This document shows, one piece after another, positions 7,525 through 64,000 of a stretch of 64,000 bases of DNA. Numbering within the stretch: the first letter of the stretch is position 1; every line of letters starts with the position of its first letter. A program made the position numbers and the translations under genes. The notes below the pieces were generated by a model. It was given only the letters and a program-made list of their open reading frames with translations. It was not told where the DNA came from and made no database searches. The DNA comes from Candidatus Omnitrophota bacterium (GTDB taxonomy: Bacteria; Omnitrophota; Omnitrophia; Omnitrophales; Aquincolibacteriaceae): contig JAZDFE010000007.1 in the NCBI GenBank assembly GCA_043808175.1, forward strand, positions 16,099-80,098, in the 5' to 3' direction.

Positions 7525-8532
7525 ATGACCACCACACTGAATCTCGAGACGATTTATGCGCCGGTGCAAGCCAGCATGAGCCGGGTCCCATCGCTTATCC
7601 GGGAGACGCTCGACACTCCCATTCTCAAGATGCAAGAGATGGTGGACCATTTTTTTTCGAAGAACGGGAAGCTCCTACGGCCGGCCTTCGTTTTTCTAGG
7701 AGCCGGTCTTTCAAGGACTTTAAAATACGAACAGGAGATCTCGTCCGAGCGCAACGAAACAGCGGAGCTTCATCTTGCCGCAGCAGCCGAGATCTTCCAT
7801 GCCGCGACGCTCATTCATGACGACATCATTGATTCCGCACCCTTACGGCGGGGTGTTTCAGCCCTTCACATTCGATCAGGGTCCCAGGCGGCGGTTCTCG
7901 CGGGGGATTACTTTCATGACCGCGCCATCGTAACAATCTTTCGTTATGGCGATAACCGGATCATTCCGCTTTTCCTCCGGACGGCCGGCGAGATCTGTGA
8001 AGGAGAGGTTCAGGAGATCAGTGAAAAAAAGAACATCAACATGACCGAAGAGATCCATCTCGAGATCATCCGGAAAAAAACAGCGTCGTTCCTTGCGTGC
8101 GCCCTTCAGACGGGGGCGTTTATTTGGGGGATCGAACCGGAGAAAGCAGAGGCCCTCGGCCGGTTCGGGGAATTTTTCGGAATGGCGTTCCAGATCACGG
8201 ATGACTATCTGGATTTTTCCGGCGAAGAAAGCAAATTCGGAAAAACTCTCGGGTCGGACCTGGAAGAAGGAGTCTACACGCTTCCCGTGATTCATTGCCT
8301 CGCATCGGGAGAGCGGGACAAAGTCGTTCGCATTCTTTATTCCCGCAGCCACAAAAGACGTTTTTCCATACTTCGGGAGACTCTTGAAAAAAACGGGGCC
8401 CTGGATTATGCGCTTGCCAAGGCAAAAGGGTTTATGGACATGGCCAAACGCGAACTCGAGGTTTTCCCGCCGTCCATTTTCAGGACAAGTCTCGAACAGC
8501 TTGCGGATTATGCTCTTGGGCGGAATTGTTGA
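7525..8532 (+). CDS. Trans-polyprenyl diphosphate synthase, IspB-like.
   Basis: Both aspartate-rich motifs are present (LIHDDIIDSAPLRRG and QITDDYLDF). Confidence 0.8.
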   Translation: MTTTLNLETIYAPVQASMSRVPSLIRETLDTPILKMQEMVDHFFSKNGKLLRPAFVFLGAGLSRTLKYEQEISSERNETAELHLAAAAEIFHAATLIHDDIIDSAPLRRGVSALHIRSGSQAAVLAGDYFHDRAIVTIFRYGDNRIIPLFLRTAGEICEGEVQEISEKKNINMTEEIHLEIIRKKTASFLACALQTGAFIWGIEPEKAEALGRFGEFFGMAFQITDDYLDFSGEESKFGKTLGSDLEEGVYTLPVIHCLASGERDKVVRILYSRSHKRRFSILRETLEKNGALDYALAKAKGFMDMAKRELEVFPPSIFRTSLEQLADYALGRNC

Positions 8533-16397: not shown

Positions 16398-17945
16398 ATG
16401 GCGGGAAAACGGAAGATTCACATATTTGACACCACGCTGAGAGACGGCGAGCAATCACCCGGGGCGTCGCTTACTCCGGATGAGAAGCTGACGATCGCGC
16501 GCCAGCTTGAGCGGTTGAATATCGATGTGATCGAAGCCGGGTTTCCGGCATCTTCACTTGGGGAGATGAAGGCCGTCTCCATGATCGCGGAAAATGTGCG
16601 TAAGCCCGTGATCTGCGGTCTTTCGCGCATGATCCCACGGGATATCGATGCCTGCCGACGGGCCCTTGAAAAGGCCGCGAGAAAACGCCTGCATCTTTTT
16701 CTCGCAACCTCCCAGATTCATCGTGAGTTCAAGCTCAAAAAAAACAAAAGAGAGATCTTAGCGATGGTAGAACAGAACATCAAATCTGCGGCTAAGGATT
16801 TTAAGCAGATCGAATTTTCGCCTGAGGATGCGTCACGTACCGAACGGGACTTTTTGGCGGGGACCGTCCGGGCCGCGATCCATGCGGGGGCCACTTCGAT
16901 CAATATTCCGGATACTGTGGGTTACACGGTCCCGCAGGAATTCACGGAGCTGATCCGTTTCTTGATCAAGAAAAACCCCGAATTGGGCAAAAAGGTCGTG
17001 CTTTCGGTTCATTGTCATAACGACCTCGGTCTCGCGACAGCCAATTCCTTGGCCGCCGTCCTGGCGGGTGCGAATCAGGTGGAGTGTACGGTGAATGGGA
17101 TTGGCGAACGTGCGGGGAACGCTTCGCTGGAAGAGATCGCCATGGCGATCGATACGCGCGCGGATTTCATGAATTGTTACACAGATATCAAACTCTCTGA
17201 GATCACCAAAGCTTCGCGGTTGGTATCTAATTTGACGGGAATGGTCGTTCAGCCTAACAAAGCGATCGTCGGGCGCAATGCCTTCTGGCATGCTTCCGGC
17301 ATCCATCAGGACGGGGTGCTCAAGAAGCGCCAGACCTATGAGATCATGGACCCGAAAAAGATCGGGCTTTCCGGCAACCAGCTGATGCTCGGGAAACTCT
17401 CGGGCAAGCACGCCTTTGAGGTGCGTGTGAAAAAGCTCGGGTTCCGCTTGGGGCTCAAGGAACTCGATCAGGCTTTCGTTCAATTCAAGGCTCTCGCGGA
17501 CAAGAAGAAATATATTTTTGACGAAGATCTCGAGGCCATCTTGCAAAATGAAATCGCCAAGATCCCGGAGACCTGGAAGCTGGCATCCATGAAGGTGGTG
17601 TCTGAAACCGGCGCAAAGCCTCATGCTCAGATCAAGCTTTCTTATGAAGGCAAGGCCAAGCAAGCCGTTTCGAACGGAGACGGTCCCGTGGATGCTTGTT
17701 ACAAGGCCATTGAGAAGATCGTCAATTCCAGGGCACAACTTATTCATTACGGTCTGCAATCGGTCACGAGCGGCAAAGATGCTTTGGGCGAAGTGCTGGT
17801 TAAGCTTGAGATCGGTGGCAAGGAAGTGACCGGTCGCGGCACGAGTACTGACATTATTGAAGCCAGCGTACGCGCCTATCTTTTCGCGATTAATAAAGTT
17901 TCGGCGAACTCTCAACGGGCCGCGAGCCAGTCTTCCCCGGTGTGA
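16398..17945 (+). CDS. leuA: 2-isopropylmalate synthase / (R)-citramalate synthase family. The start is refined to MAGKRKIHIFDTTLRDGEQ.
   Basis: The HMGL-like TIM barrel (HCHNDLGLATANSLAAVLAGA) and a C-terminal LeuA dimerisation/regulatory domain are present. Confidence 0.8.
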   Translation: MAGKRKIHIFDTTLRDGEQSPGASLTPDEKLTIARQLERLNIDVIEAGFPASSLGEMKAVSMIAENVRKPVICGLSRMIPRDIDACRRALEKAARKRLHLFLATSQIHREFKLKKNKREILAMVEQNIKSAAKDFKQIEFSPEDASRTERDFLAGTVRAAIHAGATSINIPDTVGYTVPQEFTELIRFLIKKNPELGKKVVLSVHCHNDLGLATANSLAAVLAGANQVECTVNGIGERAGNASLEEIAMAIDTRADFMNCYTDIKLSEITKASRLVSNLTGMVVQPNKAIVGRNAFWHASGIHQDGVLKKRQTYEIMDPKKIGLSGNQLMLGKLSGKHAFEVRVKKLGFRLGLKELDQAFVQFKALADKKKYIFDEDLEAILQNEIAKIPETWKLASMKVVSETGAKPHAQIKLSYEGKAKQAVSNGDGPVDACYKAIEKIVNSRAQLIHYGLQSVTSGKDALGEVLVKLEIGGKEVTGRGTSTDIIEASVRAYLFAINKVSANSQRAASQSSPV

Positions 17946-18952
17946 AAAAAGACAAGCCCAATTCCCCATCAAAGAATTTAAAGGTCAATTGGACTAGTCC
18001 TGGCAACCTTCAGTCAGGAAAAAATAGATGCCAGGACAAGACCTTCAAGCTTTACGGAATCTTCGGGTACCCCCTTTCGCACACTCTTTCTCCGACCATG
18101 CACGAAGCCGCGTTCCGCAGGCTCGGGATCGACGCCCACTATATCGTTCTGGAATTGATTCCCGCCGATTTCAAAAAGCTCATGCGCCAATCCTCCGAAC
18201 TTTCTCTTTCAGGTTTTAATGTCACAGTGCCCTACAAAGAAACAGTGATGAAAGATCTCGCCGGCATCCGGCCGGAAGCGCGTGTCATCGGCGCGGTCAA
18301 TACGGTTTTCAAACAAGGGAAACGGTGGATAGGTACCAATACGGACATGGAAGGTTTTCTTACGGCGATCATGAAGGAAGGCGGGTTTCGCCCGTCCGGG
18401 AAAAAGGCCGTGATCCTCGGGGCCGGTGGCGCGGCACGCGCGGTGGTTTATGGTCTTTCGAGAGAGGGAATCCGGGAGATCCTGATCGCGGATTGCTTTC
18501 CCCAAAAAGCCCAGAAGATCGCGAGTGACATGCGGAAACTTTTCAAACGGGTGAATTACTATGCTGCAATGGCCGGAACACCGGAGGTCAAGGAGGCTCT
18601 TCAAAAAGCCGATGTTATTATCAACGCGACTCCGATCGGGCTGAAGTCTCAAGACCCAAAGGTGGTCCCGGAAAGATGGATCCCTCGAGCGGGAAGGGCT
18701 CGAGGAACTCCGCGGGGGCGAGCCTCGAAAAGATCAAGCTGCGGCTCGATGCTTTTTATGGATCTTATTTATAATCCGGCCGTGACACCTTTTTTAAAGA
18801 TGGCAAAAAAGAAAGGGCATCGGACCCTAAACGGGCTCGGGATGCTGCTTCATCAAGGCGCTCGGGCTTTGGAGCTTTGGACGGGACGAAAGGCGCCGGT
18901 GGGCGTGATGCGCCGGGCGCTTCTTAACGCTCTAAGCGAACGGGGGAAATGA
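17942..18952 (+). CDS. aroE: Shikimate dehydrogenase carrying two insertions. One is an N-terminal family-1 repeat element of about 30 aa. The other is an internal Arg-rich insert of about 20 aa.
   Basis: AroE signature is present (LYGIFGYPLSHTLSPTMHEAAF ... ILGAGGAARAVVYGL ... NATPIGL ... DLIYNP). The GTG start overlaps the leuA stop (GTGA). Confidence 0.8.
   Translation: MKKDKPNSPSKNLKVNWTSPGNLQSGKNRCQDKTFKLYGIFGYPLSHTLSPTMHEAAFRRLGIDAHYIVLELIPADFKKLMRQSSELSLSGFNVTVPYKETVMKDLAGIRPEARVIGAVNTVFKQGKRWIGTNTDMEGFLTAIMKEGGFRPSGKKAVILGAGGAARAVVYGLSREGIREILIADCFPQKAQKIASDMRKLFKRVNYYAAMAGTPEVKEALQKADVIINATPIGLKSQDPKVVPERWIPRAGRARGTPRGRASKRSSCGSMLFMDLIYNPAVTPFLKMAKKKGHRTLNGLGMLLHQGARALELWTGRKAPVGVMRRALLNALSERGK
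17954..18040 (+). repeat. Family-1 intragenic repeat, copy A. It is about 87-90 bp, lies in-frame in the aroE 5' coding region and translates as PNSPSKNLKVNWTSPGNLQSGKNRCQDKTF.
   Basis: By eye it is roughly 75% identical to copies at about 39917-40005 and 40244-40331. An internal inverted repeat is present: gtcctggca (17996-18004) pairs with tgccaggac (18028-18036). Confidence 0.8.
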
Positions 18953-34048: not shown

Positions 34049-36141
34049 AGGTGATGCAGCTCTTGCCGGCGCTTGAGCTCGGCGGGACCGAGCGCGGGGT
34101 GGTGGATCTTGCGAAAGCCATGAAAAAAGAAGGGCACGCGACCCTGGTCGTTTCATCCGGCGGGGCGCTTGTGGCCGAACTCCAGAAGATCGGGATCCCG
34201 CATTACGGGCTACCCGTGCATCAGAAATCTCTGGCGAGTTTATTCCTGGTCGAAGAGCTGGTGAAGATCATCCAGCGGGAGCGCGTGGACATCATTCACG
34301 CCCGCAGCCGCGTCCCGGCCTGGCTCGGGTGGCTCGCGGCCCGCAAGACCGGCATTCCGTTCATCACGACCTGCCACGGACATTATTCTGTTCATCCGAT
34401 GAGCTTTGTCATGGGGTGGGGGAAGCGTGTGATCGTGGCATCGCATGCCATCGGCCGGAGAATGATCGATGAATTTCATGTTCCGCCGGACAGGATCCGT
34501 TTGGTCCCGCGCGGTGTGGATCTTTCACAGTTCACATTCTCATTCGCGAAATTCGAAAAGCACAAGGGGCCGATGAGGATCATCCATATCGGACGGTTCT
34601 CGCCGGCCAAAGGCCAGGTGGAATTCCTTAAGGCCGTTCATTTATTGCGTAGCCGGCTCCCTCATTTTGAAGTTTGGATCGTCGGCTCCGAAGCCCGCGG
34701 CAGGCACCGTTACACAGATCTGATGAAAAAAACGGTGCAACAGTTCGGGCTTGAGACCTGCGTCAAGATCCTCCCGCCGACGCGTGACGTCGCAGGACTT
34801 TTGGCCCAGTCCGATCTTCTGGTGCTTTCCTCGCTGATCCCGGAGCCTTTTGGGCGGGTGGTCATTGAGGCCGGTGCCGTGGGAACCCCTGTGGTCGCGA
34901 CCTGGTTGGGCGGCGTGCGGGATATTATTGATCACAACGAGACAGGCCTTCTATTCCCTCCAAGAAATATTCCCGCGATGGCCGAGGCCATGTACGAACT
35001 TTTGACGGACCGGGAAAAGGCCAAAGCATTCGCGGTAAAGCTTCGAAAAAAAGTAGAAGAGCAATTTAATCTGGAACAAATGGTCCGGAAAACGCTCGAG
35101 ATCTATGAGGAAGTCCGCAAGCGGCGGAGGATCCTCGTGATCAAGCTTGGGGCCATGGGAGATCTCATCCTGGTCGTGCCGAGTTTAAGGATGCTCAAGG
35201 AGCGCTTCCCGGATGCGGTGATCACGCTCCTGGTCGATCGCAAACTCGCGCCGATCGTGTCGGCATGTCCTTACCTGGACGATATGATCCTGGTGGACCG
35301 GAAAAAACTTTCGAACATTTTTTATCTTTTAAAGACCGCCCGGCGCATCCGCCGGGAAGGATTTGACATGTCCATCGATCTCCATAACAACAAATGGACG
35401 CATCTTCTGGCGTATCTCGGCGGCGCGGTCCAGCGTTTCGGTTTTGAGCGCGGGAGATGGGGATGGCTTTTGAACCGTCCCGACAGGACCTTTGAGGTCG
35501 GGGATTCGCCTCTCCGCCATCAATTCCGGGTGCTGTCCAAGGCCGGGGTCATCAAATTCGATGACATGTTGGAGCTTTGGGTGAAATCCGAGAGCCTTGA
35601 AAAAGCACGCCAGATGATCGGTACGCTCGAGCCCAAAGAATCTACCCGGATCGTCGGGTTCGTGATGGGGTCCAGCCCCAACTGGCCGAGCAAACGCTGG
35701 CCTTCGGAGCATTTTGTCGATTTGGCAAAAAGGCTCTTTGAAAAATATGACGCGCGGATCGTCCTTATCGGCTCTCCTGAAGAAACGGATCTCGGGACTC
35801 CTTTTTATTCTTTCGGGTCCGGCAAGATCCTCGATCTCATCGGGAAAACAGCGTTGGAGGAACTGCCGGCTTTTTTCAAACAGCTTCATTTGGTGGTAAC
35901 AGGGGATACGGCGCCGCTTCACATGGCTGCGGCCATGAATGTCCCGGTCGTGGCCTTGTTTGGCCCGACGGACGCCAAACGTCATATTCCTCCCGGAAAA
36001 AAGATCGACGCGCTCTCACATCATCTGCCATGCCAGCCCTGCTACGAGGGTGTCTGCAAAGCCAAAGAAACGAAGGCCTGTCTTACGCATATTTCCGTGG
36101 AAGAAGTTTTCGAACATTGCCAAAGAGCGCTCGTGCCATGA
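34045..36141 (+). CDS. Fusion of a GT4 (GT-B, RfaG-like) glycosyltransferase of about 370 aa to a GT9 heptosyltransferase-like domain of about 330 aa.
   Basis: GT4 motif is present (EPFGRVVIEAGAVGTPVVATWLGGVRDII). The GT9 part reads RILVIKLGAMGDLILVVPSLRMLKERFPDA and GDTAPLHMAAAMNVPVVALFGPTD. Confidence 0.75.
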   Translation: MKVMQLLPALELGGTERGVVDLAKAMKKEGHATLVVSSGGALVAELQKIGIPHYGLPVHQKSLASLFLVEELVKIIQRERVDIIHARSRVPAWLGWLAARKTGIPFITTCHGHYSVHPMSFVMGWGKRVIVASHAIGRRMIDEFHVPPDRIRLVPRGVDLSQFTFSFAKFEKHKGPMRIIHIGRFSPAKGQVEFLKAVHLLRSRLPHFEVWIVGSEARGRHRYTDLMKKTVQQFGLETCVKILPPTRDVAGLLAQSDLLVLSSLIPEPFGRVVIEAGAVGTPVVATWLGGVRDIIDHNETGLLFPPRNIPAMAEAMYELLTDREKAKAFAVKLRKKVEEQFNLEQMVRKTLEIYEEVRKRRRILVIKLGAMGDLILVVPSLRMLKERFPDAVITLLVDRKLAPIVSACPYLDDMILVDRKKLSNIFYLLKTARRIRREGFDMSIDLHNNKWTHLLAYLGGAVQRFGFERGRWGWLLNRPDRTFEVGDSPLRHQFRVLSKAGVIKFDDMLELWVKSESLEKARQMIGTLEPKESTRIVGFVMGSSPNWPSKRWPSEHFVDLAKRLFEKYDARIVLIGSPEETDLGTPFYSFGSGKILDLIGKTALEELPAFFKQLHLVVTGDTAPLHMAAAMNVPVVALFGPTDAKRHIPPGKKIDALSHHLPCQPCYEGVCKAKETKACLTHISVEEVFEHCQRALVP

Positions 36142-36174
36142 TTTTCCTTAATCAAAAAAATAAATGGGTGATCA

Positions 36175-36307
36175 TGATAGCCCAAACTTTTCATTTATTT
36201 TCCAAAACGGTAGTTTGGACAGCCCCAATTTCAACTCCGTTGAAATTGATAGATATTGGGACAGTCCAAGTCACCATCCATGAAGAACAAAGGAAGACTT
36301 GGGCGCT
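36175..36307 (+). repeat. Family-2 intergenic repeat, copy R3. It is hairpin-rich and ends at the start codon of the next heptosyltransferase.
   Basis: It shares the gtccaagtc...agacttgggcg module with the copy at 63150-63192. Hairpins: caatttcaa/ttgaaattg and ccaagtc/gacttgg. Confidence 0.6.
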
Positions 36308-37330: not shown

Positions 37331-38289
37331 ATATTCTTGTCGTGACGTTGAGCAATTTCGGGGACGTGATCCTGACGACCCCCGTGATCATGGCACTTGC
37401 CCGGAAATATCCCGAGGCTCGGATCACGGTGGTGGTGGGGCCGCGCGCGAGAAGTGTTCTTCAGAGAAGCCCCGATATCCATAAGATCGTGATCTACGAC
37501 AAGAAGGCTTCTTTCCTGGAAAAATTAAAATTCATCGCAGAACTTCGCAAAGTAAAATATCACTGCGTCGTGGACCTGCGTAATACCGCCATTCCGTTCC
37601 TGGTCTCCTGCGGCAAGAAAACCCCTCTTTTCAGGAAATTCACCAAGGTCAACATGCGGGATCGTCACCTCGAAATGCTCGCGACAGTGGAACCCGGCAT
37701 TCCCCATCCCTCTCCTTTTCATTTTTTTAACCAAGAGGATGAGATCTTTGCGATGCGCACTCTGGATGCTGCGGGGATCACGGAAAAGAAAGGATGGATC
37801 CTGGTGGCGGCAGGGGCGGCCAGCGAGAGAAAACGGTGGCCGGTTCAATCCTTTAAGGAAGTGATCCAAGCGCTTCACGAGAGGACCGGCAAGAAGATCC
37901 TCCTGGTGGGAACCCTTAATGAAAGACCGGTGGCCGACAGCATTCTGAAAAAACTTCCAGGAATCGTCGGGATCCTTTGCGGTGACCTTGTTTTGCCCGA
38001 GACGGCAGCGCTTATCGCGAACGCTTCGCTTGTGATCGCTAACGACAGCGCGATCATGCATCTTGGGTTCGAATTGGGCACGCCGACTGTCGGGATCTTC
38101 GGACCGACAGACCATGAGAAATACGGACACGAAGGTCCGAAATTCCGCATTGCGCGGGAAAAGGCCCAAGGTTGTGCCTGCAGGTCCGATCAATTGCCTC
38201 GCGCCGAGCGGAGTTGTTTTCACGGACTTAAACCCGAAAAAGTGATCGGACTTTCTTTGGAGCTTCTGAATGCCACTCAATCTTCCTGA
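37327..38289 (+). CDS. GT9 heptosyltransferase. The true ATG start, MNILVVTL, overlaps the upstream stop (ATGA). The listed 404-aa ORF from 37075 is an out-of-register extension.
   Basis: GT9 motifs are present (MNILVVTLSNFGDVILTTPVIMALARKYPEA and NDSAIMHLGFELGTPTVGIFGPTDHEKYG). Confidence 0.8.
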   Translation: MNILVVTLSNFGDVILTTPVIMALARKYPEARITVVVGPRARSVLQRSPDIHKIVIYDKKASFLEKLKFIAELRKVKYHCVVDLRNTAIPFLVSCGKKTPLFRKFTKVNMRDRHLEMLATVEPGIPHPSPFHFFNQEDEIFAMRTLDAAGITEKKGWILVAAGAASERKRWPVQSFKEVIQALHERTGKKILLVGTLNERPVADSILKKLPGIVGILCGDLVLPETAALIANASLVIANDSAIMHLGFELGTPTVGIFGPTDHEKYGHEGPKFRIAREKAQGCACRSDQLPRAERSCFHGLKPEKVIGLSLELLNATQSS

Positions 38290-40666
38290 CACTCCGCGCA
38301 TTCTCATCACGCGCACCGATCGCATCGGGGACCTCGTCCTCACCACGCCGCTCTTCAAAGCCTTGCGGGAAAAATTCCCGAAAGCCTGGATCGCGGCGGT
38401 TGTGTTCCTCGAACACCGCGAAATCGTACAGGAAAATCCTTTTCTGGATGAGGTGATCCTCTATGATAAAAAAGGGAGCGAGCGCGGTCTTTGGGGGCAG
38501 TTCTGTTTTAGCCAAAAACTCCGGAACAAAAAATTTAATGTGGTGATCCATGCCCATGGTACGAACAGGATGCATCTTGCCGCGTGGTTCGCGGGGATCC
38601 CCCTGCGCATAGGTTACGCGCGCCGCGCGCCGTGGACGCTCACGCATGTTCATCCTTATAATAAAAAAGAAGGAAAAAAACAGGAGGCCGAATATCTCTT
38701 TGAGCTTCTGGATCTTTTGGGCGTGACCCCTCCCAAAGAGATCGAGACTTTTTTCCCCATCACGGACCGATCCGTCCGCTCTTTCGAGAGTTTGCGTGTG
38801 TTTCGCAAAATCCCGTACGATCGGCCCTGGATCGTTCTCAATCCCTCGGCGAGCGATGTGACCAAAATGTGGCCGGCGGAGCGCTTTGCCGAACTTGTGA
38901 CCCGGATCCAAAAGAATCATCCAAGCGTTTTTATTGCGATAGGGACCGTCCAGGACCGTTCTCTCATCGAAAGATTGATCAAAAACACTCCGGTTCCGGT
39001 CTTTGATCTGAGCGGAAGACTTTCCCTTGGAATGCTAGGCGCGCTTTTGAAGCGATCGGCCCTGCTTGTCTCCAACGATTCCGGGCCCGTGCATATCGCG
39101 ACGACGGTTGGCACGCCGGTGGTTTCCATTTTTGGGAGGTATGAGGCAGGTCTTGGGCCCAACCGCTGGCAACCGCTTGGGGAGCGTTCGCGCGTGGTCG
39201 CGAAGGATGTTTCGCGCATTCCGGAAGCCGTGCGGAAGTTCACCTACATCGATGAGATCACGGTGGATGAAGTTTTTCGGACCGCAAATGATCTATTGGG
39301 TAGTAGCGGCAAAAAGTTTTTGCGTGAAGAGGAGCCTTCCACGAAAGGGATATCGGGTGGAGGAGGGAGGATGGCAGAAACGGTTCCTCGCCATCCGCCA
39401 TCCGTCATCCGCCATCCGCAAAAGATCCGCAGGGTTTTGATCGTGCACCCCTACGGAATCGGGGATCTTCTCTTTGTGACGCCAGTTATGCGGGCGCTTC
39501 GTCTCGTCCCGACGGTCGAGACCGTCGATCTTCTTTTGGGATCCCGCACGCGGGAGGTCGTGGAGAATAATCCTCACATCAATGATATTTTCGTCGTGGA
39601 TAAGGACCGCGCTCATCGTCAGACTTGGCTCGAAAATCTTCGCGACCACTGGAAACTGGGCCGGAAACTCCGGGCCAAGCATTACGACCTGATCCTGGAT
39701 TATTCGCTGCAGCGCGAACATGCTTTTTGGGGTCGGTTCTTTCTCGGTATTCCGAAATGCGCGGGGTTTGCGTATAAAAAGCGCGCGACATTCCACAATA
39801 TCCGTTTTCCACTTCCAGAGGGGTTCTGGAAACGGCATGCCGTGGATTTTTATTGTGATCTTGCGGAGGCAGCCAGGATTCCCGTGGAAGACCGTTTTCT
39901 GGAATATTTTTTTCCCAAGCCCCATTCTCCATCAGAAGGATCAAAGGTTAATGGGACTAGCCCTGGCGACCTTTTAGGAAAAGAAAATAGATGCCAGGGC
40001 AAGCACGAATCTTTGATCGAAGCAGAGATTGCCGGAAAGTTAAAACTTCTGCCGGAACGTTTTCTCGCGGTCGCTCCCGGCGGCGGGGATTCGTGGGGGA
40101 AGGAAGCTTCTTTCAAGCGCTGGCCTGTGAAGTATTTCGCGGCATTGATCGAAAAACTTCAAATGGAACGAAACATCCGCGGCGTCGCCATCCTGGGCAG
40201 TCGTTCCGAGCGGGCGCTGTGTGAAGAATTGCAGGCGATGATCGAGCCCCATTCTCCATCAAAAGCATCAAAGGTTAATGGGACTAGTCCCGGCAACCTT
40301 TTAAGAAACGAAAATAGAAGTCAGGACAAGCCACCCTCAGTCGTGCTGGCGGGGGAGACAAGCCTCACGCAAACGGCCATGGTCCTCAAAAAGTCCGCGC
40401 TTTTTGTCGGCAACGACGGAGGCCTGGTTCATTTGGCGCATGCGCTTCATGTGCCGCTCCTGGCTTTTTACGGGCCCGTGCCGCCCGAAGTGTACGGACC
40501 CTACCCGCCATCGCCTGATGCGATCGCCATCTTCAAACGAGGATTAAAATGCCGTCCGTGTTACTACAAATTCCGCTATCATAAAAAGTGTCCAACGATC
40601 GCGTGTCTTACAGATTTAAAGCCGGAAGAGGCGCTTGAACAGACAAAGGGTCAGGTGCCTTTTTGA
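38270..40666 (+). CDS. 798-aa ORF with two complete GT9 heptosyltransferase domains in tandem. The second begins at an in-frame AGGAGG ribosome-binding site plus ATG at 39371. The second domain carries two family-1 repeat insertions.
   Basis: Domain 1 reads ILITRTDRIGDLVLTTPLFKALREKFPKA ... NDSGPVHIATTVGTPVVSIFGR. Domain 2 reads RVLIVHPYGIGDLLFVTPVMRAL ... GNDGGLVHLAHALHVPLLAFYGP. There is no stop between the two domains. Confidence 0.7.
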   Translation: MPLNLPDTPRILITRTDRIGDLVLTTPLFKALREKFPKAWIAAVVFLEHREIVQENPFLDEVILYDKKGSERGLWGQFCFSQKLRNKKFNVVIHAHGTNRMHLAAWFAGIPLRIGYARRAPWTLTHVHPYNKKEGKKQEAEYLFELLDLLGVTPPKEIETFFPITDRSVRSFESLRVFRKIPYDRPWIVLNPSASDVTKMWPAERFAELVTRIQKNHPSVFIAIGTVQDRSLIERLIKNTPVPVFDLSGRLSLGMLGALLKRSALLVSNDSGPVHIATTVGTPVVSIFGRYEAGLGPNRWQPLGERSRVVAKDVSRIPEAVRKFTYIDEITVDEVFRTANDLLGSSGKKFLREEEPSTKGISGGGGRMAETVPRHPPSVIRHPQKIRRVLIVHPYGIGDLLFVTPVMRALRLVPTVETVDLLLGSRTREVVENNPHINDIFVVDKDRAHRQTWLENLRDHWKLGRKLRAKHYDLILDYSLQREHAFWGRFFLGIPKCAGFAYKKRATFHNIRFPLPEGFWKRHAVDFYCDLAEAARIPVEDRFLEYFFPKPHSPSEGSKVNGTSPGDLLGKENRCQGKHESLIEAEIAGKLKLLPERFLAVAPGGGDSWGKEASFKRWPVKYFAALIEKLQMERNIRGVAILGSRSERALCEELQAMIEPHSPSKASKVNGTSPGNLLRNENRSQDKPPSVVLAGETSLTQTAMVLKKSALFVGNDGGLVHLAHALHVPLLAFYGPVPPEVYGPYPPSPDAIAIFKRGLKCRPCYYKFRYHKKCPTIACLTDLKPEEALEQTKGQVPF
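39917..40005 (+). repeat. Family-1 intragenic repeat, copy B. It is in-frame in GT9 domain 2 and translates as PHSPSEGSKVNGTSPGDLLGKENRCQGKHE.
   Basis: It is homologous to copies A and C. The internal inverted repeat is gccctggcg (39960-39968) pairing with tgccagggc (39992-40000). Confidence 0.8.
40244..40331 (+). repeat. Family-1 intragenic repeat, copy C. It is in-frame in GT9 domain 2 and translates as PHSPSKASKVNGTSPGNLLRNENRSQDKPP. Its hairpin arm is degenerate.
   Basis: By eye it is about 80% identical to copy B over some 88 bp (cccattctccatca...aaggttaatgggactag...aaaatagaag). Confidence 0.8.
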
Positions 40667-52210: not shown

Positions 52211-52350
52211 TCCCAATTTTTATCAATTGAAGCGAAGCGGTCCCAATCCCAATCAATCGAAGCGTAGCTGAGATTGGGGCCGTCTCGACTACCATAAATG
52301 AAAAGAAAATAAAAGTCGCGACGGAAATTGGGGCAATCCTGATTACCATT
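52209..52350 (+). repeat. Family-2 intergenic repeat, copy R1, between hpf and ptsN.
   Basis: It shares two modules with copy R2 at 63085-63230: gtcccaa-N4-tatcaatt...agcgg and ca(t)aa(a)tgaaaagaaaa-aaaag...cggaaattgggg. Confidence 0.6.
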
Positions 52351-52412
52351 CATCAAAAAAAATGAAAGTCAGGATAGTTCCACAACCTTTTTCAATCAGG
52401 AGGAATACATCC

Positions 52413-52904: not shown

Positions 52905-54164
52905 ATGAAATTCTTTAAATGGCTTTATCCTGGCATCGGAATCAAGCGGTGGATCTTTCTCTGCGCGTTGGGGCTCGGATTTATCGTATTGGTGGCTCTT
53001 TTGACCGTGCAGACCATGGCCAAGACGAGTGTGTTATTGGCCTCGTTCGCAACGGCATTTTTGATTCTTGGGATCTTTCTTATCTATACCTCGATAAAAA
53101 ACATGGTCCGGATCTTCGTGCGCGCGCTGATGCCTTTGAACGGGAACGATTCGCTTGTGGATATTGTTTACCAGAAACGCCGGGTGGAGTCTCTGTTGCA
53201 TGGACCGCGCGTTGTGGCGATCGGAGGCGGGACCGGCTTGAGCACCATGCTTTCAGGTGTCAAGGCGTTTACGAGTAATATCACTGCGATCGTGACGGTG
53301 ACGGACACAGGTGGAAGTTCCGGCCGTTTGCGCGACGAAATGGACATGCTGCCACCGGGCGATATCCGTAACTGTCTGGTGGCGCTCGCCGATGCAGGGC
53401 CGCTCATTCGCGATCTATTTCAGTACCGTTTTGAACTCGGGGAAGGACTGAAGGGACACAGCTTTGGGAATCTTTTTATTACCGCGCTTTCGAAGGTGAC
53501 GGGAGACTTTGAAAAAGCGATCGCGGAATCCAGCAAGGTTCTGGCTATCCGAGGACGGGTGCTTCCGTCGACGCTTGAAAAAGTGACGCTTGTGGGCGAA
53601 TTCATGGACGGGACTTCGGTCGAAGGCGAGACGAACATTACGGATCTGAAAAGACCGCTTCGCAGCATCCGTCTCCGGCCGGACGATTGCAAGGCGTGTC
53701 AGGAAGCCCTGGACGCGATCGAGATCGCAGACCTTATTCTCATGGGCCCGGGAAGTCTTTACACCAGTATTTTGCCGAATCTTTTGATCAAGGATATTCG
53801 TGATGCCGTGCTTCGGTCCGATGCGTACAAGGTTTATATCATGAACGCGATGACGCAGCCTGGTGAGACTATGGGGATGAGCGCATGGGATCATTTGAAC
53901 GTAATTCTGGACCATACGGACCCAAGGATCGTGGATGCTTGTTTTGTGAATACGGCGATCATTCCGGCGGCGATGCTTCAACGTTATGCTAAACAAGGCG
54001 CGATGCCAGTGAAATTGGATGTCGAGAAGATCCGGGAAAAAGGCTACCAGATCATCCAAGGGGATGTGCTTCAGGAGGGCGAGCAGGTTCGCCATAATTC
54101 TGAGCTTTTGATGAAATTTATTTTGGAACATTACAGGGAATATGCCGAGCGAACGGAAGAATGA
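52905..54164 (+). CDS. YvcK / UPF0052 (CofD-like) gluconeogenesis-factor family protein with an unusual N-terminal two-helix membrane anchor of about 90 aa.
   Basis: YvcK signature is present (VVAIGGGTGLSTMLSGVKAFTSNITAIVTVTDTGGSSGRLRDE). The extension reads IFLCALGLGFIVLVALL ... FLILGIFLIY. Confidence 0.75.
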   Translation: MKFFKWLYPGIGIKRWIFLCALGLGFIVLVALLTVQTMAKTSVLLASFATAFLILGIFLIYTSIKNMVRIFVRALMPLNGNDSLVDIVYQKRRVESLLHGPRVVAIGGGTGLSTMLSGVKAFTSNITAIVTVTDTGGSSGRLRDEMDMLPPGDIRNCLVALADAGPLIRDLFQYRFELGEGLKGHSFGNLFITALSKVTGDFEKAIAESSKVLAIRGRVLPSTLEKVTLVGEFMDGTSVEGETNITDLKRPLRSIRLRPDDCKACQEALDAIEIADLILMGPGSLYTSILPNLLIKDIRDAVLRSDAYKVYIMNAMTQPGETMGMSAWDHLNVILDHTDPRIVDACFVNTAIIPAAMLQRYAKQGAMPVKLDVEKIREKGYQIIQGDVLQEGEQVRHNSELLMKFILEHYREYAERTEE

Positions 54165-54255
54165 TGGGGCCATGATGTTCAAGTCTTTATTTTTTTCATG
54201 AATGGCGACTTGGACCGCCATGATTTTCGATTCGTTTTTTTAATTAAGGAAAATC

Positions 54256-54552
54256 ATGACAAAACGACCTAAAAAAATCAAGCAAGAGACGATCGAACGG
54301 ATTTTTATGATTGGCAACAAACTGGGCCTTCACGCCCGGCCCGCCGCTGTTTTTGTCCAGACGGCAAATCGGTTTGAGGCGTCGGTCGAGGTTCAAAAAG
54401 ATGATATCAAGATCGATGGTAAATCGATCATGGGCATCATGACGCTTGCGGCTGAAATGGGTTCGTCGATCGCGGTGCGCGTGACCGGCAAGGACGCTGC
54501 GGAGGCCATGGAAGCGTTGGCCAAACTCATAGGATCTAATTTCGGGGAATAA
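54256..54552 (+). CDS. ptsH: Phosphocarrier protein HPr/NPr.
   Basis: The active-site His region is present (GLHARPAAVFV). Confidence 0.8.
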   Translation: MTKRPKKIKQETIERIFMIGNKLGLHARPAAVFVQTANRFEASVEVQKDDIKIDGKSIMGIMTLAAEMGSSIAVRVTGKDAAEAMEALAKLIGSNFGE

Positions 54553-62059: not shown

Positions 62060-63079
62060 ATGACGAGCACAAAGATCATTTGCACGCTGGGTCCCGCTTC
62101 AAGCCGGGCCAATGTCCTGCGGCAGATGATGCGTGCGGGAATGGATGTGGTACGGCTTAATTTTTCCCACGGAACGCTTGCGGAGCACCGGGAGAAGATC
62201 TGTCTCATCAGAGCGCTGAACAAAAAATATCGCCGCCGCATCCAAATCCTGGGAGATCTCGAAGGTTATCGAATGAGGATTGGTGAGCTGAAGGGGCAGA
62301 AGCCGGTCGAGGTCAAGAAGCGGCAGATTCTCTGGCTCACGACGGAAAACACGGTCGGAGAAAATTCCCATATTCCCTTTGATTGGGTGGGTTCTTTGCG
62401 ACCTATCAAACCAGGCCAGCTTATCTACATTGACGACGGTCTTATTGCCCTCAAAGTCGAGGCTCGTGATCAAAAAAATCTCAAGACTCGCGTGATCGTT
62501 GGAGGTGCGATCAAAGAACGCAAAGGAATCAATATGCCTGGCGTGCAATTGGATGTCACGGGGCTGACCCGGAAGGACAGGGAGGACATTCATTTTTGCA
62601 TCGAGCATAAAGTGGATTATATCGCACAATCTTTCGTACGGAATAAAAGGGATATTTTAGATCTCCGGTCTCATCTGAAAAGCCACTCCCACGAATGCGA
62701 CGTGATCGCCAAGATTGAGAACCGGGAAGGGATCCGAAATATCGATGAAATCATAAGCGTTTGCGAAGGGATCATGGTCGCACGCGGGGATATGGGGATC
62801 TCTGTTCCGATTTATGAAGTGCCCTCGATTCAGAAGAAGATCATTAAGAAATGCAATAAGGCGAAGAAATTCGTGATCACGGCGACCCAGATGCTTGAGA
62901 GCATGACGGAACATCCCATCCCGACCCGCGCCGAAGTCAGTGATGTGGCGAACGCAATTCTCGATGGAACGGACTACGTGATGCTTTCCGCCGAATCTGC
63001 CGCTGGCCTTTATCCCGTTCAATGCGTTGAAATGATGAGCCAGATCATTAAATTTACCGAAAAAAATCTTAGACAATGA
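62060..63079 (+). CDS. pyk: Pyruvate kinase, short form (339 aa; TIM-barrel plus lid domains only). The C-terminal allosteric domain of about 120 aa is absent.
   Basis: PK signatures are present ([53 protein letters not shown]). The ORF ends at TGA 63077-63079, exactly at the edge of a repeat insertion. Confidence 0.8.
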
Positions 63080-63084
63080 CTGTC
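63058..63084 (+). repeat. Left copy of a roughly 26-bp direct repeat (gaaaaaaatcttagacaATGActgtc). It contains the pyk stop codon. The right copy at 63221-63247 contains the ABC-F start codon.
   Basis: A 16-bp exact core, aatcttagacaatgac, is present in both copies. Flanks differ at 2 positions. Confidence 0.75.
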
Positions 63085-63230
63085 CCAACACCTATCAATT
63101 TCTACGTAGCGGCACTTGATTCTGTTTCAAAATGAAGGTAATCAGTGCCGCCCAAGTCGCCATTGATTAAAAGAAAACAAAGACTTGGGCGGAAATTGGG
63201 CGGTTATCATCAACCCTAATGGAAAAGAAT
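63085..63230 (+). repeat. Family-2 intergenic repeat, copy R2. It has an 11-bp perfect stem (ccgcccaagtc/gacttgggcgg) and a second hairpin (gcggcacttgatt/aatcagtgccgc).
   Basis: It is homologous to R1 (52209-52350) and R3 (36175-36307); see the shared modules listed there. Confidence 0.65.
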
Positions 63231-63238
63231 CTTAGACA

Positions 63239-64000
63239 ATGACCGTCTTATTACAAGTCAATGAATTGCACAAGGCCTATGGCGCTGTAACGATCCTCGA
63301 TAACGCCACCGCGTCATTCGGAGATGATCAAAAGATCGGTGTGATCGGCCGCAACGGGGCCGGGAAATCCACGCTTTGCCGTATCATCACCGGACACGAA
63401 TCGGCTGAAAGCGGTACCGTCACGCGCAACGCTGCGTTGCGCCTCTCCTATCTCGAACAGCATGATACGTTCAAGCCCGGGGAGCGGGTGGTGGACTTCC
63501 TGATGCGCACCACGCGGAGCGAGCATTGGGAGTGCGGGCAGATCGCCGCGCGGTTCCAGCTTGAAAATGAGATCCTTGAAGAATCCGTACGGAATCTTCC
63601 GGGAGGTTTTCAGACGCGCGTGAAGCTTGCGGCAATGCTTTTGGGCGACCCCAATTTCCTGATTCTTGACGAACCTAGCAACTATTTAGATTTGAGCACG
63701 TTGATCCTTTTAGAAAATTTTCTGCTCGATTTCAAAGGCGGGTATCTGGTCGTCTCCCACGATCGGGAATTCTTGAAGCGGACCTGTGATCACACGCTTG
63801 AGGTCGAGAACGGAGGGCTTGCCCTTTATCCCGGGGACATTGAAGAGTATTTCGAATTCAAGGAGGAGCAACTCGCCCAGAAACAGGCCTATAACCGCGG
63901 TCTCGACAAGAAACGGGAACAACTCCAGATCTTCATTGACCGGTTCAAGGCGAAGGCTTCCACGGCGACGCGTGCACAGTCGAAAATGAAACAACTCGCA
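63239..64000 (+). CDS. ABC-F family ATP-binding protein (N-terminal part; continues beyond the window).
   Basis: The start reads MTVLLQVNELHKAYGAVTIL. Walker A (GRNGAGKST), the signature (LPGGFQTRVKLA) and Walker B (LILDEPSNYLD) are present, then the inter-domain linker begins. Confidence 0.8.
   Translation, partial: MTVLLQVNELHKAYGAVTILDNATASFGDDQKIGVIGRNGAGKSTLCRIITGHESAESGTVTRNAALRLSYLEQHDTFKPGERVVDFLMRTTRSEHWECGQIAARFQLENEILEESVRNLPGGFQTRVKLAAMLLGDPNFLILDEPSNYLDLSTLILLENFLLDFKGGYLVVSHDREFLKRTCDHTLEVENGGLALYPGDIEEYFEFKEEQLAQKQAYNRGLDKKREQLQIFIDRFKAKASTATRAQSKMKQLA

What the first reader, a model, noticed from the sequence alone, without database searches (positions are those of the whole stretch)
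39917..40331. Short (~90 bp) repeat element inserted in-frame into protein-coding genes (family 1, three copies)
**What the sequence shows.**
- The same roughly 88-90-bp sequence occurs three times and is always inside an ORF: 17954-18040 (aroE N-terminus), 39917-40005 and 40244-40331 (both in the second GT9 domain of the 798-aa heptosyltransferase ORF).
- The consensus contains cccattctccatca...aaggttaatgggactagYccYggcRacctt...gaaaatagaWgYcaggRcaag.
- All copies have the same orientation, are a multiple of 3 long and contain no stop codon.
- They therefore translate as 30-aa inserts (PNSPSKNLKVNWTSPGNLQSGKNRCQDKTF, PHSPSEGSKVNGTSPGDLLGKENRCQGKHE, PHSPSKASKVNGTSPGNLLRNENRSQDKPP).
- The flanking host sequence is conserved enzyme core. 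In the heptosyltransferase the inserts sit between recognisable GT9 motifs, where loops are expected.

**Interpretation.**
- In-frame intragenic spread of a short repeat is the hallmark of Rickettsia palindromic elements (RPEs). Neisseria Correia elements and enterobacterial REP/ERIC repeats are the better-known small mobile repeats, but they are typically intergenic.
- The element also carries an inverted repeat (see the separate finding).
- This looks like a mobile-element family that is tolerated inside proteins and that I do not recognise as a named family.
Basis: seen in the sequence. Interest (0 to 1): 0.85.

Follow-up and report, generated by a model that had tools for sequence, protein, structure and literature searches.

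The report
In-frame 84-base mobile repeat, Omnitrophota
An 84-base selfish DNA repeat has inserted, in reading frame, into many unrelated housekeeping genes of the uncultured bacterial phylum Omnitrophota, adding a 28-residue loop to each protein, much as the Rickettsia palindromic elements do.

Summary
The window holds three copies of one repeat, at 17957-18040, 39920-40003 and 40247-40330. The true unit is 84 nt (28 codons), not about 90. All three copies lie in frame inside coding sequence: aroE after codon 5, and twice in a GT9 heptosyltransferase.

The repeat is a dispersed, structured, nucleotide-level element. Strict-pattern scans found it in 26 loci from about 17 genome bins, those with a taxon name all Omnitrophota, and in 37 metagenome contigs. 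That gives 57 unique full copies at about 34 sites in at least 16 unrelated gene families. Close orthologues show clean 28-residue presence/absence. Forty-five of 50 bounded copies are exactly 84 nt, and 44 of those are open and in the sense frame. Five untranslated copies at gene starts are 86 nt.

Third codon positions are the least variable, and His/Asn covaries with Gly/Trp because the two DNA positions base-pair. So selection acts on the DNA, not on the peptide.

The element has no terminal inverted repeats. It folds into two hairpins. It inserts just after an AGGRCAWG-like motif that mimics its own 3' hairpin arm, and the variable positions of that motif are copied between flank and element end.

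The mobilising enzyme is unknown; a hairpin-dependent, single-strand mechanism is my favoured inference. No paper describing the element was found.

The parts
17957..18040 (+). Element copy 1 (84 nt, 28 codons). It is inserted after codon 5 of aroE and encodes PNSPSKNLKVNWTSPGNLQSGKNRCQDK.
   Evidence: Orthologous filled copies are L036 and L047.
17949..17956 (+). Left-flank target motif AAGACAAG. It matches the element's own 3' end, AGGACAAG (18033-18040), at 7 of 8 positions.
   Evidence: Sequence; flank statistics.
17942..18952 (+). Host gene aroE (shikimate dehydrogenase). Its GTG start at 17942 overlaps the stop of the upstream cimA/leuA-like ORF.
39920..40003 (+). Element copy 2 (84 nt) in the second GT9 heptosyltransferase unit. 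Among the 20 aligned orthologues, this site is filled only in the window.
   Evidence: The empty site in L027 reads CCTAAG|CCCACATCTTTG.
39921..39955 (+). 5' hairpin A of copy 2: CCCATT (39921-39926) pairs with AATGGG (39950-39955). In the aroE copy the arms are CCAATT and AATTGG, a compensatory change.
   Evidence: Pair 4-36 is A:T in 24 copies, C:G in 19 and G:T in 2, with 3 copies unpaired at that position.
39957..40003 (+). 3' hairpin B of copy 2: CTAG-C-CCTGGC (39957-39967) pairs with GCCAGG-G-CAAG (39993-40003) across an A-rich loop. The stem reaches the last nucleotide of the element.
   Evidence: Variant stems CCTAGC/GCTAGG (L033) and CCTCGC/GCGAGG (L038) are.
40247..40330 (+). Element copy 3 (84 nt) in the same GT9 unit. 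The site is also filled in P0004, P0005 and P0006 and empty in 16 other aligned orthologues.
   Evidence: The empty sites in L027 and L028 read ATGATCAAA|CCNCC.
38270..40666 (+). Host ORF of 798 aa: two GT9 heptosyltransferase units in one reading frame. In relatives these are two adjacent genes of about 360 aa each.

Best explanation
This is a family of 84-nt non-autonomous mobile DNA elements specific to Omnitrophota. It behaves like the Rickettsia palindromic elements (RPEs): it lands inside unrelated housekeeping genes and survives there because it adds 28 stop-free codons.

Shown: The element is dispersed across many genomes and genes. Occupancy is polymorphic between close orthologues, and the indels are exactly 28 codons. 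Conservation is at the nucleotide and secondary-structure level, not at the peptide level. The element has no terminal inverted repeats and folds as two hairpins whose stems reach nt 2 and the last nt. It always lies immediately 3' of a sequence resembling AGGRCAWG. Those same eight bases form the 3' arm of its own terminal hairpin and are complementary to an internal CTAGYCCT. The variable positions of this motif (-2 and -5) are the same in the flank and in the element end, copy by copy.

Inferred: The element is mobilised in trans. Integration is target-specific and uses folded single-stranded DNA. The target is either recognised by pairing with the internal CTAGYCCT or must match the element's own end, as with the guide and cleavage-site logic of IS200/IS605 TnpA or REP/RAYT HUH enzymes. 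A recombinase acting on folded single strands is the other option. The last 5 or so bases of the element are copied from or homogenised with the target.

Purifying selection then removes every insertion that is not sense-oriented, in phase with the AAG/ATG codon and a multiple of three. This explains why intragenic copies are all 84 nt and in one frame, while untranslated copies at gene starts can be 86 nt or contain stops. The 28-residue hydrophilic insert is tolerated as a disordered surface loop. No benefit to the host is implied.
For: Spread: the strict 26-nt pattern found 26 loci from about 17 genome bins, the named ones all Omnitrophota and the rest labelled 'uncultured bacterium'. It found 37 metagenome contigs and no viral contigs. 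An nhmmer search of 537 kb gave 71 full hits, 57 of them unique, at about 34 distinct sites.

Presence/absence: the GT9 alignment shows three different occupied sites, each a 28-residue indel. AroE orthologues at 93% identity lack the insert.

Length and frame: 45 of 50 bounded copies are 84 nt and 44 of those 45 have no stop. All 44 sit in long ORFs in the same frame. Five 86-nt copies lie at start codons and are out of frame.

Hosts: histidine kinase, UbiD, UvrA, PFK, FtsK, acyl-CoA dehydrogenase, homoserine dehydrogenase, ValRS, GluRS, a tyrosine recombinase, helicases, a NuoL/M-like subunit and others.

Nucleotide-level selection: mean entropy by codon position is 0.50, 0.44 and 0.30 for positions 1, 2 and 3. 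The H/N and G/W alternatives are a base pair, A:T in 24 copies and C:G in 19. Frameshifted copies keep the sequence. A peptide profile finds only 11 proteins among 1.84 billion representatives.

Structure: the two-hairpin model is 96.8% paired, and 0 of 500 shuffles reach the observed covariation score. The related family 2 has a 3' hairpin that is 91.4% paired, with 7 of 10 pairs showing compensatory changes, including the terminal pairs.

Target: the left flank matches the element's own end at positions -1 to -8 in 83, 91, 96, 91, 65, 72, 48 and 63% of copies, then drops to 9-15% at -9 and -10. Copy-specific identity is 31/34 at -2 (0 of 5000 permutations reach this) and 21/34 at -5 (3 of 5000). 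Family 2 shows the same at -3 and -2. L007 and L054 carry related copies 6 nt apart in the same gene, and each ends in its local target tetranucleotide, CATG or CAAG.

The IS608 guide and cleavage-site logic is taken from PMC3201880.
Against: No transposase or autonomous partner was found. There was no IS200-type TnpA hit in the 537 kb held, using a probe sequence recalled from memory. No long element carries the same ends.

The IS200/IS605 model predicts no target duplication. Here the flank and the element end covary at -2 and -5, which looks like a duplication. At -5 the internal partner does not covary (10 of 48 copies unpaired). The CATG copies break two of the four terminal pairs. There is no room for a separate left guide between the left end and hairpin A.

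Copy number per genome is unknown, because only 8-kb loci around hits were seen. The search pattern fixed part of the core, so conservation of those columns is partly by construction. Some copies are orthologous and not independent; this was handled by using site representatives.

Translation of the inserts is inferred from frame conservation only. The AlphaFold model is poor (mean pLDDT 56.5).
Confidence: 0.8

Rival explanations
1. It is a classical MITE. A DDE transposase mobilises it in trans and makes a staggered cut, giving a fixed target-site duplication of about 5 bp (RCAWG). The hairpins are incidental or serve another role.
For: The flank and the element end are identical at the variable positions -2 and -5, copy by copy. 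Six independent sites have CATG on both sides, against one mixed site. L007 and L054 end in their local target. Some family-2 variants have a 3' arm GTTGGGA(C/T) that is the reverse complement of the 5' end TCCCAA, which resembles a terminal inverted repeat.
Against: Family 1 has no terminal inverted repeat: 5' YCCMATTCTCC against 3' ...GATGCCAGG. Flank similarity extends to -8, into the hairpin arm, which a 5-bp duplication does not explain. The duplicated bases are paired with internal bases and show compensatory changes (L021 7268-7351 with CACG and an internal T-to-G change; L020 6336-6419 with TAAG and an internal G-to-A change; family 2). No insertion sequence with these ends was seen.
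Confidence: 0.25
2. It is a conserved 28-residue protein module or linker, kept by selection on the peptide and spread by domain shuffling. It is not a mobile DNA element.
For: Nearly all copies are translated in one frame, and some residues (VN.TSPG) are invariant.
Against: Third codon positions are the least variable. The H/N and G/W covariation is a DNA base pair. Frameshifted, stop-containing and 86-nt untranslated copies keep the nucleotide sequence. A second element inserts inside the first. The insert is a predicted low-confidence coil. The peptide profile finds only 11 of 1.84 billion representative proteins.
Confidence: 0.03
3. It spreads without a dedicated transposase. Replication template switching or microhomology-mediated recombination copies one unit from a tandem or circular copy, primed by a nascent strand ending in ...AGGRCAAG.
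For: Head-to-tail arrays have an exact 84-nt period: L002 with 3 copies and L009 with 2, plus an 86-nt variant with 3 copies in L033. There is one-sided microhomology of variable length (4-9 nt) between the flank and the element's 3' end, and the unit length is fixed. Mismatch correction against the target would explain why the end matches the flank.
Against: This does not explain the conserved 5' hairpin. It does not explain compensatory maintenance of both stems across two families that share termini. It does not explain the repeated precise nesting of family 2 at the same position of family 1.
Confidence: 0.1
4. It is primarily a functional cis-acting RNA or DNA signal recruited by the host, for example an mRNA stability or translation-pausing hairpin, or a protein-binding palindrome.
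For: Hairpins are conserved, and the GGACTAGTCC core is nearly invariant.
Against: There is no Rfam match, even at E<=1. The central palindrome shows no covariation. Occupancy is polymorphic among close relatives in unrelated genes, with no common pathway.
Confidence: 0.05

Closest known systems
Rickettsia palindromic elements (RPE; Ogata et al. 2000; summarised in PMC2229807 and PMC10969869)
   Same: Both are short non-coding repeats found fused in frame inside many unrelated, conserved protein genes. Both add a hydrophilic peptide that the host protein tolerates. Both also occur outside genes. In both cases the mobility mechanism is unknown and no cognate transposase is known.
   Different: RPEs are 105-146 bp, have about 12-bp terminal inverted repeats and fold as one long stem-loop formed by the two ends. 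This element is 84 nt, has no terminal inverted repeat and folds as two separate hairpins. It also has a defined 8-nt target motif repeated at its 3' end. It occurs in Omnitrophota, not in Rickettsiales. No sequence relation is known, and none was tested directly.
IS200/IS605-family ends and their gene-less derivatives (PATEs), mobilised by the HUH Y1 transposase TnpA (IS608 paradigm, PMC3201880; PATE, PMC3119063)
   Same: Neither has terminal inverted repeats. Both have hairpins at or near both ends. Both insert in one orientation immediately 3' of a specific short sequence. In both, the bases just 5' of the foot of the 3' hairpin are complementary to the element's terminal (cleavage-site-like) bases, and an unpaired A sits within that stretch. 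The combined minimal left and right ends of IS608 come to about 80 nt by my own sum of the distances given in PMC3201880, which is comparable to 84 nt.
   Different: IS608 makes no target duplication, and its left and right cleavage sites differ (TTAC and TCAA). Here the flank and the element end are the same and covary. The cleavage-site-like bases here abut the stem, instead of lying 10-19 nt away. There is no separate left guide. No tnpA gene was found.
REP/BIME sequences with RAYT (TnpA-REP) (PMC8266576, PMC3479197; the REP properties listed here are from my own knowledge, because I saw only the abstracts of these papers)
   Same: Both are short, high-copy, hairpin-forming repeats with a conserved short motif next to the stem. 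Both are proposed to be moved in trans by an HUH enzyme acting on single-stranded DNA.
   Different: REPs are 20-40 nt, extragenic and not translated. This element is 84 nt, has two hairpins and is mostly intragenic and in frame.
Intragenic bacterial MITEs (ERIC, the 107-bp Correia element, Coxiella QMITE; PMC2229807, PMC10969869, PMC5896051)
   Same: Both are small non-autonomous repeats that carry an open frame and are sometimes fused in frame to host genes.
   Different: Most of those MITEs have terminal inverted repeats and TA or other fixed target duplications, and they are mainly intergenic. Here about 88% of bounded copies (44 of 50) are intragenic and in frame, and there is no terminal inverted repeat.

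Membership tests
Rickettsia palindromic elements (RPE) | Repeat found fused in frame within many unrelated protein-coding genes | tested here: met
   44 of 50 bounded copies are in frame in long ORFs. They fall in at least 16 host families. Indels in orthologues are clean.
Rickettsia palindromic elements (RPE) | Terminal inverted repeats of about 12 bp, forming one long stem-loop from the 5' and 3' ends (PMC2229807) | tested here: not met
   The ends YCCMATTCTCC and ...GATGCCAGGRCAAG are not complementary. The supported fold is two separate hairpins.
Rickettsia palindromic elements (RPE) | Size 105-146 bp and occurrence in Rickettsia or Rickettsiales | tested here: not met
   The unit is 84 nt. 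Every genome hit that carries a taxon name is an Omnitrophota bin; the rest are labelled 'uncultured bacterium'.
MITE (classical, DDE-mobilised) | Terminal inverted repeats matching a parent insertion sequence | tested here: not met
   Family 1 has no terminal inverted repeat. No long element has the same ends in the 537 kb held. Only some family-2 variants have TCCCAA...TTGGGA.
MITE (classical, DDE-mobilised) | Target-site duplication of fixed length | tested here: inconclusive
   The flank and the element end are identical at the variable positions -2 and -5. However, similarity extends with variable length to -8 and overlaps a stem arm.
IS200/IS605-derived element (PATE-like) | No terminal inverted repeats; hairpins at or near both ends | tested here: met
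   Hairpins A and B have covariation support. The family-2 3' hairpin does too.
IS200/IS605-derived element (PATE-like) | Oriented insertion 3' of a specific tetra- or pentanucleotide, recognised by pairing with a guide 5' of the hairpin foot | tested here: inconclusive
   Insertion is always just 3' of ..RCAWG. The internal CTAG just 5' of hairpin B pairs with the terminal CAAG, with compensatory changes in two family-1 copies and across family 2. The CATG copies and position -5 do not fit.
IS200/IS605-derived element (PATE-like) | No target duplication; left flank and right end need not match | tested here: not met
   The flank equals the element's own right end at -2 in 31 of 34 sites, with 0 of 5000 permutations reaching this.
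IS200/IS605-derived element (PATE-like) | Cognate Y1 HUH transposase present in the same genomes | not testable with these tools
   Whole genomes were not available. A tblastn search with an IS200 TnpA probe recalled from memory found nothing in the 537 kb held, which is weak evidence.
Known RNA families (Rfam 15) | Match to a curated covariance model | tested here: not met
   There was no hit at gathering score in the window. There was no hit at E<=1 in 39800-40450.

The most novel reading that the evidence does not exclude
The 84-nt unit, together with its sister family 2, is a minimal self-targeting single-strand transposon. It folds as a two-hairpin dumbbell, and an internal 4-8-nt guide (CTAGYCCT) both closes its own 3' end and selects the genomic target by base pairing. 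Target specificity would then be written in the element and would evolve with it. This would make it a natural, ultra-compact, programmable insertion module, and the first explanation of how RPE-type in-frame elements move.
Probability: 0.25. Interest if true: 0.85.

Novelty: new variant of a known kind. Interest (0 to 1): 0.68.

Why it matters
In-frame 'selfish DNA inside proteins' has been described almost only for Rickettsia and a few relatives, where it was called a unique feature, and how it moves has never been explained.

Here the same behaviour appears in an unrelated, uncultured phylum of ultra-small, probably host-dependent bacteria. This suggests the phenomenon recurs where selection is relaxed.

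This family is unusually informative. It has a fixed 28-codon unit, a defined 8-nt target that mimics its own hairpin arm, covariation among flank, element end and internal bases, and nested insertions by a sister family. These features make the insertion mechanism testable.

The element also matters for annotation. It inflates and splits gene calls in metagenome bins (several callers started AroE inside or after the element). It also adds 28-residue disordered loops to enzymes such as AroE, UvrA, FtsK and aminoacyl-tRNA synthetases.

Tried and rejected
1. A profile of the 28-residue peptide against the 5.8-billion-protein index gave only 3 hits. The full HMMER scan of 1.84 billion representatives gave 11 hits. 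Protein searches are therefore a poor way to count copies, because cluster representatives often lack the insert.

2. It is 82% paired, with no double changes and no excess over shuffles.

3. I looked for terminal inverted repeats and for a long autonomous element bounded by the same ends. None was found.

4. A tblastn search with an IS200 TnpA probe recalled from memory found nothing in the loci held.

5. Rfam gave nothing at gathering score or at E<=1. tRNA and tmRNA scans found none. The viral contig scan found none.

6. The AlphaFold2 model of the GT9 unit from 20 close homologues had mean pLDDT 56.5. I used it only to note that insert 2 is a low-confidence coil between a confident helix and strand. 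I ran no fold search on it.

7. I tried to map the element one-to-one onto the IS608 left and right ends (cleavage site, 19 nt, guide, hairpin). This failed because no separate left guide can be placed.

8. Integron attC-like and tyrosine-recombinase core models were considered. The core motifs do not match GTTRRRY, and there is no inverted arm symmetry around the junction. They are kept only as a generic 'folded single-strand recombinase' alternative.
Full report
**Observation.** The three copies are real. The 30-nt core occurs three times in the window with up to 3 mismatches, against 0.00 expected in shuffles.

Aligning them with further copies fixes the unit at exactly 84 nt: 17957-18040, 39920-40003 and 40247-40330. 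Each unit follows an AAG or GAG codon and ends in AAG. All three are in frame and free of stops. One lies in the 336-aa aroE ORF and two lie in a 798-aa ORF made of two GT9 heptosyltransferase units. No Rfam family, tRNA or tmRNA matches.

**Distribution.** I scanned one genome per species with the pattern GGTNAATNGGACTAGNCCNGGCNACC. It returned 26 loci from about 17 genome bins, those with a taxon name all Candidatus Omnitrophota. The metagenome collection returned 37 more contigs and viral contigs returned none. An nhmmer profile over the 537 kb held found 71 full-length hits, 57 of them unique, plus fragments.

Of 50 copies with clear boundaries, 45 are exactly 84 nt. Of those 45, 44 have no in-frame stop and lie inside long ORFs in the same sense frame. 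The other five are 86 nt. They sit at start codons, are out of frame, and are therefore untranslated. The copies occupy about 34 distinct sites.

The host genes are unrelated housekeeping genes. They include histidine kinases, UbiD, UvrA, phosphofructokinase, FtsK, acyl-CoA dehydrogenase, homoserine dehydrogenase, ValRS, GluRS, a tyrosine recombinase, Ski2-like and UvrD/AddA helicases, a NuoL/M-like subunit, CMD and DUF3108, in addition to GT9 and AroE. Head-to-tail arrays with an exact 84-nt period also occur, in L002 and L009.

**Presence/absence.**
- Twenty GT9 orthologues at 71-87% identity were aligned. Site 40247 is filled in the window and in P0004-P0006 and empty in 16 others. Site 39920 is filled only in the window. 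A third site (VADK|LKLL) is filled in P0008, P0009 and P0011. Every case is a 28-residue indel.
- At the DNA level the empty alleles carry one copy of the target: ATGATCAAA|CCN and CCTAAG|CCC.
- AroE orthologues without the element, including one at 93% identity, begin M/V-K-K-D-K-x-F-K-L-Y-G. Filled ones read MKKDK[28 aa]xFKLYG.
- The inserts coincide with breaks in the alignments to solved GT9 structures 1PSW and 3TOV. In a poor AlphaFold model (mean pLDDT 56.5), the second insert is a low-confidence coil between a confident helix and strand.

**Conservation is at the nucleotide level, not the peptide level.**
- Among 41 in-frame copies, mean column entropy is 0.50, 0.44 and 0.30 bits at codon positions 1, 2 and 3. 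This is the reverse of what purifying selection on a peptide produces.
- The peptide alternatives His/Asn and Gly/Trp covary because their first codon bases pair: A:T in 24 copies, C:G in 19 and G:T in 2, with 3 copies unpaired there.
- Frameshifted and stop-containing copies keep the nucleotide sequence.
- A profile of the peptide finds only 11 proteins among 1.84 billion representatives.

**Anatomy.** There is no terminal inverted repeat. The supported fold has two parts. Hairpin A pairs nt 2-7 (CCMATT) with nt 31-36 (AATKGG). Hairpin B pairs nt 42-48 with nt 74-80 (YCCTGGC with GCCAGGR). Together they are 96.8% paired, and 0 of 500 shuffles reach the observed covariation score.

Hairpin B continues to the very last base. 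Internal C-T-A-G (nt 38-41) faces the terminal C-A-A-G with one A·A mismatch. Two copies with unusual ends carry the matching internal change: L021 7268-7351 has CACG with T to G, and L020 6336-6419 has TAAG with G to A.

**Target.** The element always lies directly 3' of a sequence resembling its own last eight bases, AGGRCAWG. The flank matches the element end at positions -1 to -8 in 83, 91, 96, 91, 65, 72, 48 and 63% of copies. The match collapses to 9-15% at -9 and -10.

At the two variable positions the match is copy-specific. It is 31 of 34 sites at -2, where permutations average 20.3 and 0 of 5000 reach the observed value. It is 21 of 34 at -5, where 3 of 5000 reach it. Six independent sites have CATG on both sides.

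In the acyl-CoA dehydrogenase gene of L007 and L054, closely related copies sit 6 nt apart. Each ends in its own local target, CATG or CAAG. At least the last five or so bases therefore behave as a target duplication or are homogenised with the target.

**A sister family.** A second 84-nt repeat (family 2) shares the 5' end, the complementary ATTGGG and the plan of the 3' end. Its consensus is TCCCAATAC..CAATTTCCAC.GTGGAAATTGGGGC..ATCCTGAC..A-rich..GTCAGGATAG.

Family 2 nests inside family 1 after AAAATAG|, AAAATGG| or ACTAG|, again ending in the local target. It adds 28 more residues to AroE and GT9 in some species.

Its 3' hairpin is 91.4% paired, and 7 of 10 pairs show compensatory changes, including the terminal pairs. 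Its flank equals its own end at -3 and -2 in 21 of 23 copies each, with 1 and 0 of 5000 permutations reaching those values. Copies in the window at 36183-36261 (-), 52241-52318 (+) and 52322-52377 (+) are intergenic.

**Interpretation.** The element is a non-autonomous mobile element that behaves like an RPE but is not a member of that family. Its intragenic copies share one length, orientation and phase, and I attribute this to selection acting after insertion: only insertions that follow an in-phase AAG or ATG codon and add 84 stop-free bases survive. Untranslated copies are free to be 86 nt or to contain stops.

For the insertion chemistry I favour a mechanism that depends on single-stranded hairpins, with target choice linked to the internal CTAGYCCT. 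This parallels the guide and cleavage-site pairing of IS608 TnpA, where four bases 5' of each hairpin foot pair with the cleavage site, one A stays unpaired, and changing the guide changes the target (PMC3201880).

That model is only partly met. It predicts no duplication, it leaves the CATG copies and position -5 unexplained, and no transposase was found. A DDE-type MITE with a 5-bp duplication, and transposase-free template switching from tandem or circular copies, both remain open.

**Novelty.** I found no paper linking Omnitrophota to such repeats. Known in-frame repeats (RPE, ERIC, the 107-bp Correia element, QMITE) differ in size, termini and fold (PMC2229807, PMC10969869). I rate this a new variant of a known kind.

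Noticed in passing
window 36183-36261 (-), 52241-52318 (+), 52322-52377 (+); L013 1278-1361; L017 404-487; L011 3215-3412: A second 84-nt repeat family (family 2, TCCCAATAC...GTCAGGATAG) shares its termini with family 1. In the window its copies are intergenic. In other genomes it is nested inside family-1 copies and is translated as SPNTxQFPHxGNWGNPDYH..KSQD in AroE and GT9. Its 3' hairpin shows extensive compensatory variation.
   Followed up: partly
window 38270-40666, junction about 39300-39450: In relatives the two GT9 genes are separate (about 363 and 362 aa, stop and start adjacent). In the window they form one 798-aa ORF. The usual MRTLRR start of the second gene is replaced, and a GGAGG-ATG (MAETVPRHPPSVIRHPQ...) lies in frame upstream. 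It is unclear whether this is a true fusion or two overlapping genes. L052 holds a 90% match to the junction.
   Followed up: partly
window about 39385-39420; P0147 C-terminus: The peptide PRHPPSVIRHPQ at the GT9 junction resembles YRHPPSTLRHPR in a C-terminal extension of an AroE orthologue (P0147). This may be a third short repeat family that lands in coding sequence.
   Followed up: no
window about 18690-18740 (aroE): A further indel of about 15 residues (RARGTPRGRASKRSS) in AroE is present in some orthologues and absent in others. The DNA is GC-rich and partly palindromic (GGGCTCGAGG...CCTCGA). It was not found elsewhere in the loci held.
   Followed up: partly
window 36134-36185, 54160-54261, 63059-63262, 52292-52332: Additional inverted and direct repeat pairs link these intergenic stretches (I1, I2, I4, I5, D7, D8). 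They probably belong to family 2 or to further small repeat families.
   Followed up: no
L033 4643-4900; L038 (minus strand, near 7549-7658): Two variant forms were seen. L033 has a tandem triple of an 86-nt relative whose hairpin B is CCTAGC/GCTAGG. L038 has a copy whose central palindrome is replaced by TTGCCTGCCTGCCGGACAGGCAGGGGCAAG and whose hairpin B is CCTCGC/GCGAGG.
   Followed up: partly
L023 4629-4725: A family-1 copy ends ...AAAATAAAAGTCAGGATAG|AGGCCAGGGCAAG. It carries only the last 13 or so nt of a family-2 element at the usual nesting site. This may be an imprecise deletion or an excision footprint.
   Followed up: no
window 1-64000: GC skew is positive in almost every 2-kb bin of the window and cumulative skew rises almost throughout. 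The ORFs examined here are also on the + strand. The window therefore seems to lie on one replichore with the + strand leading. Element orientation cannot be separated from gene orientation here.
   Followed up: no
P0135, P0158, P0188 (AroE orthologues): Public gene calls for AroE start inside the element (MKVNWTSPGNL...) or downstream at MHEAAF. The repeat appears to disturb automatic start-codon calling in these bins.
   Followed up: no
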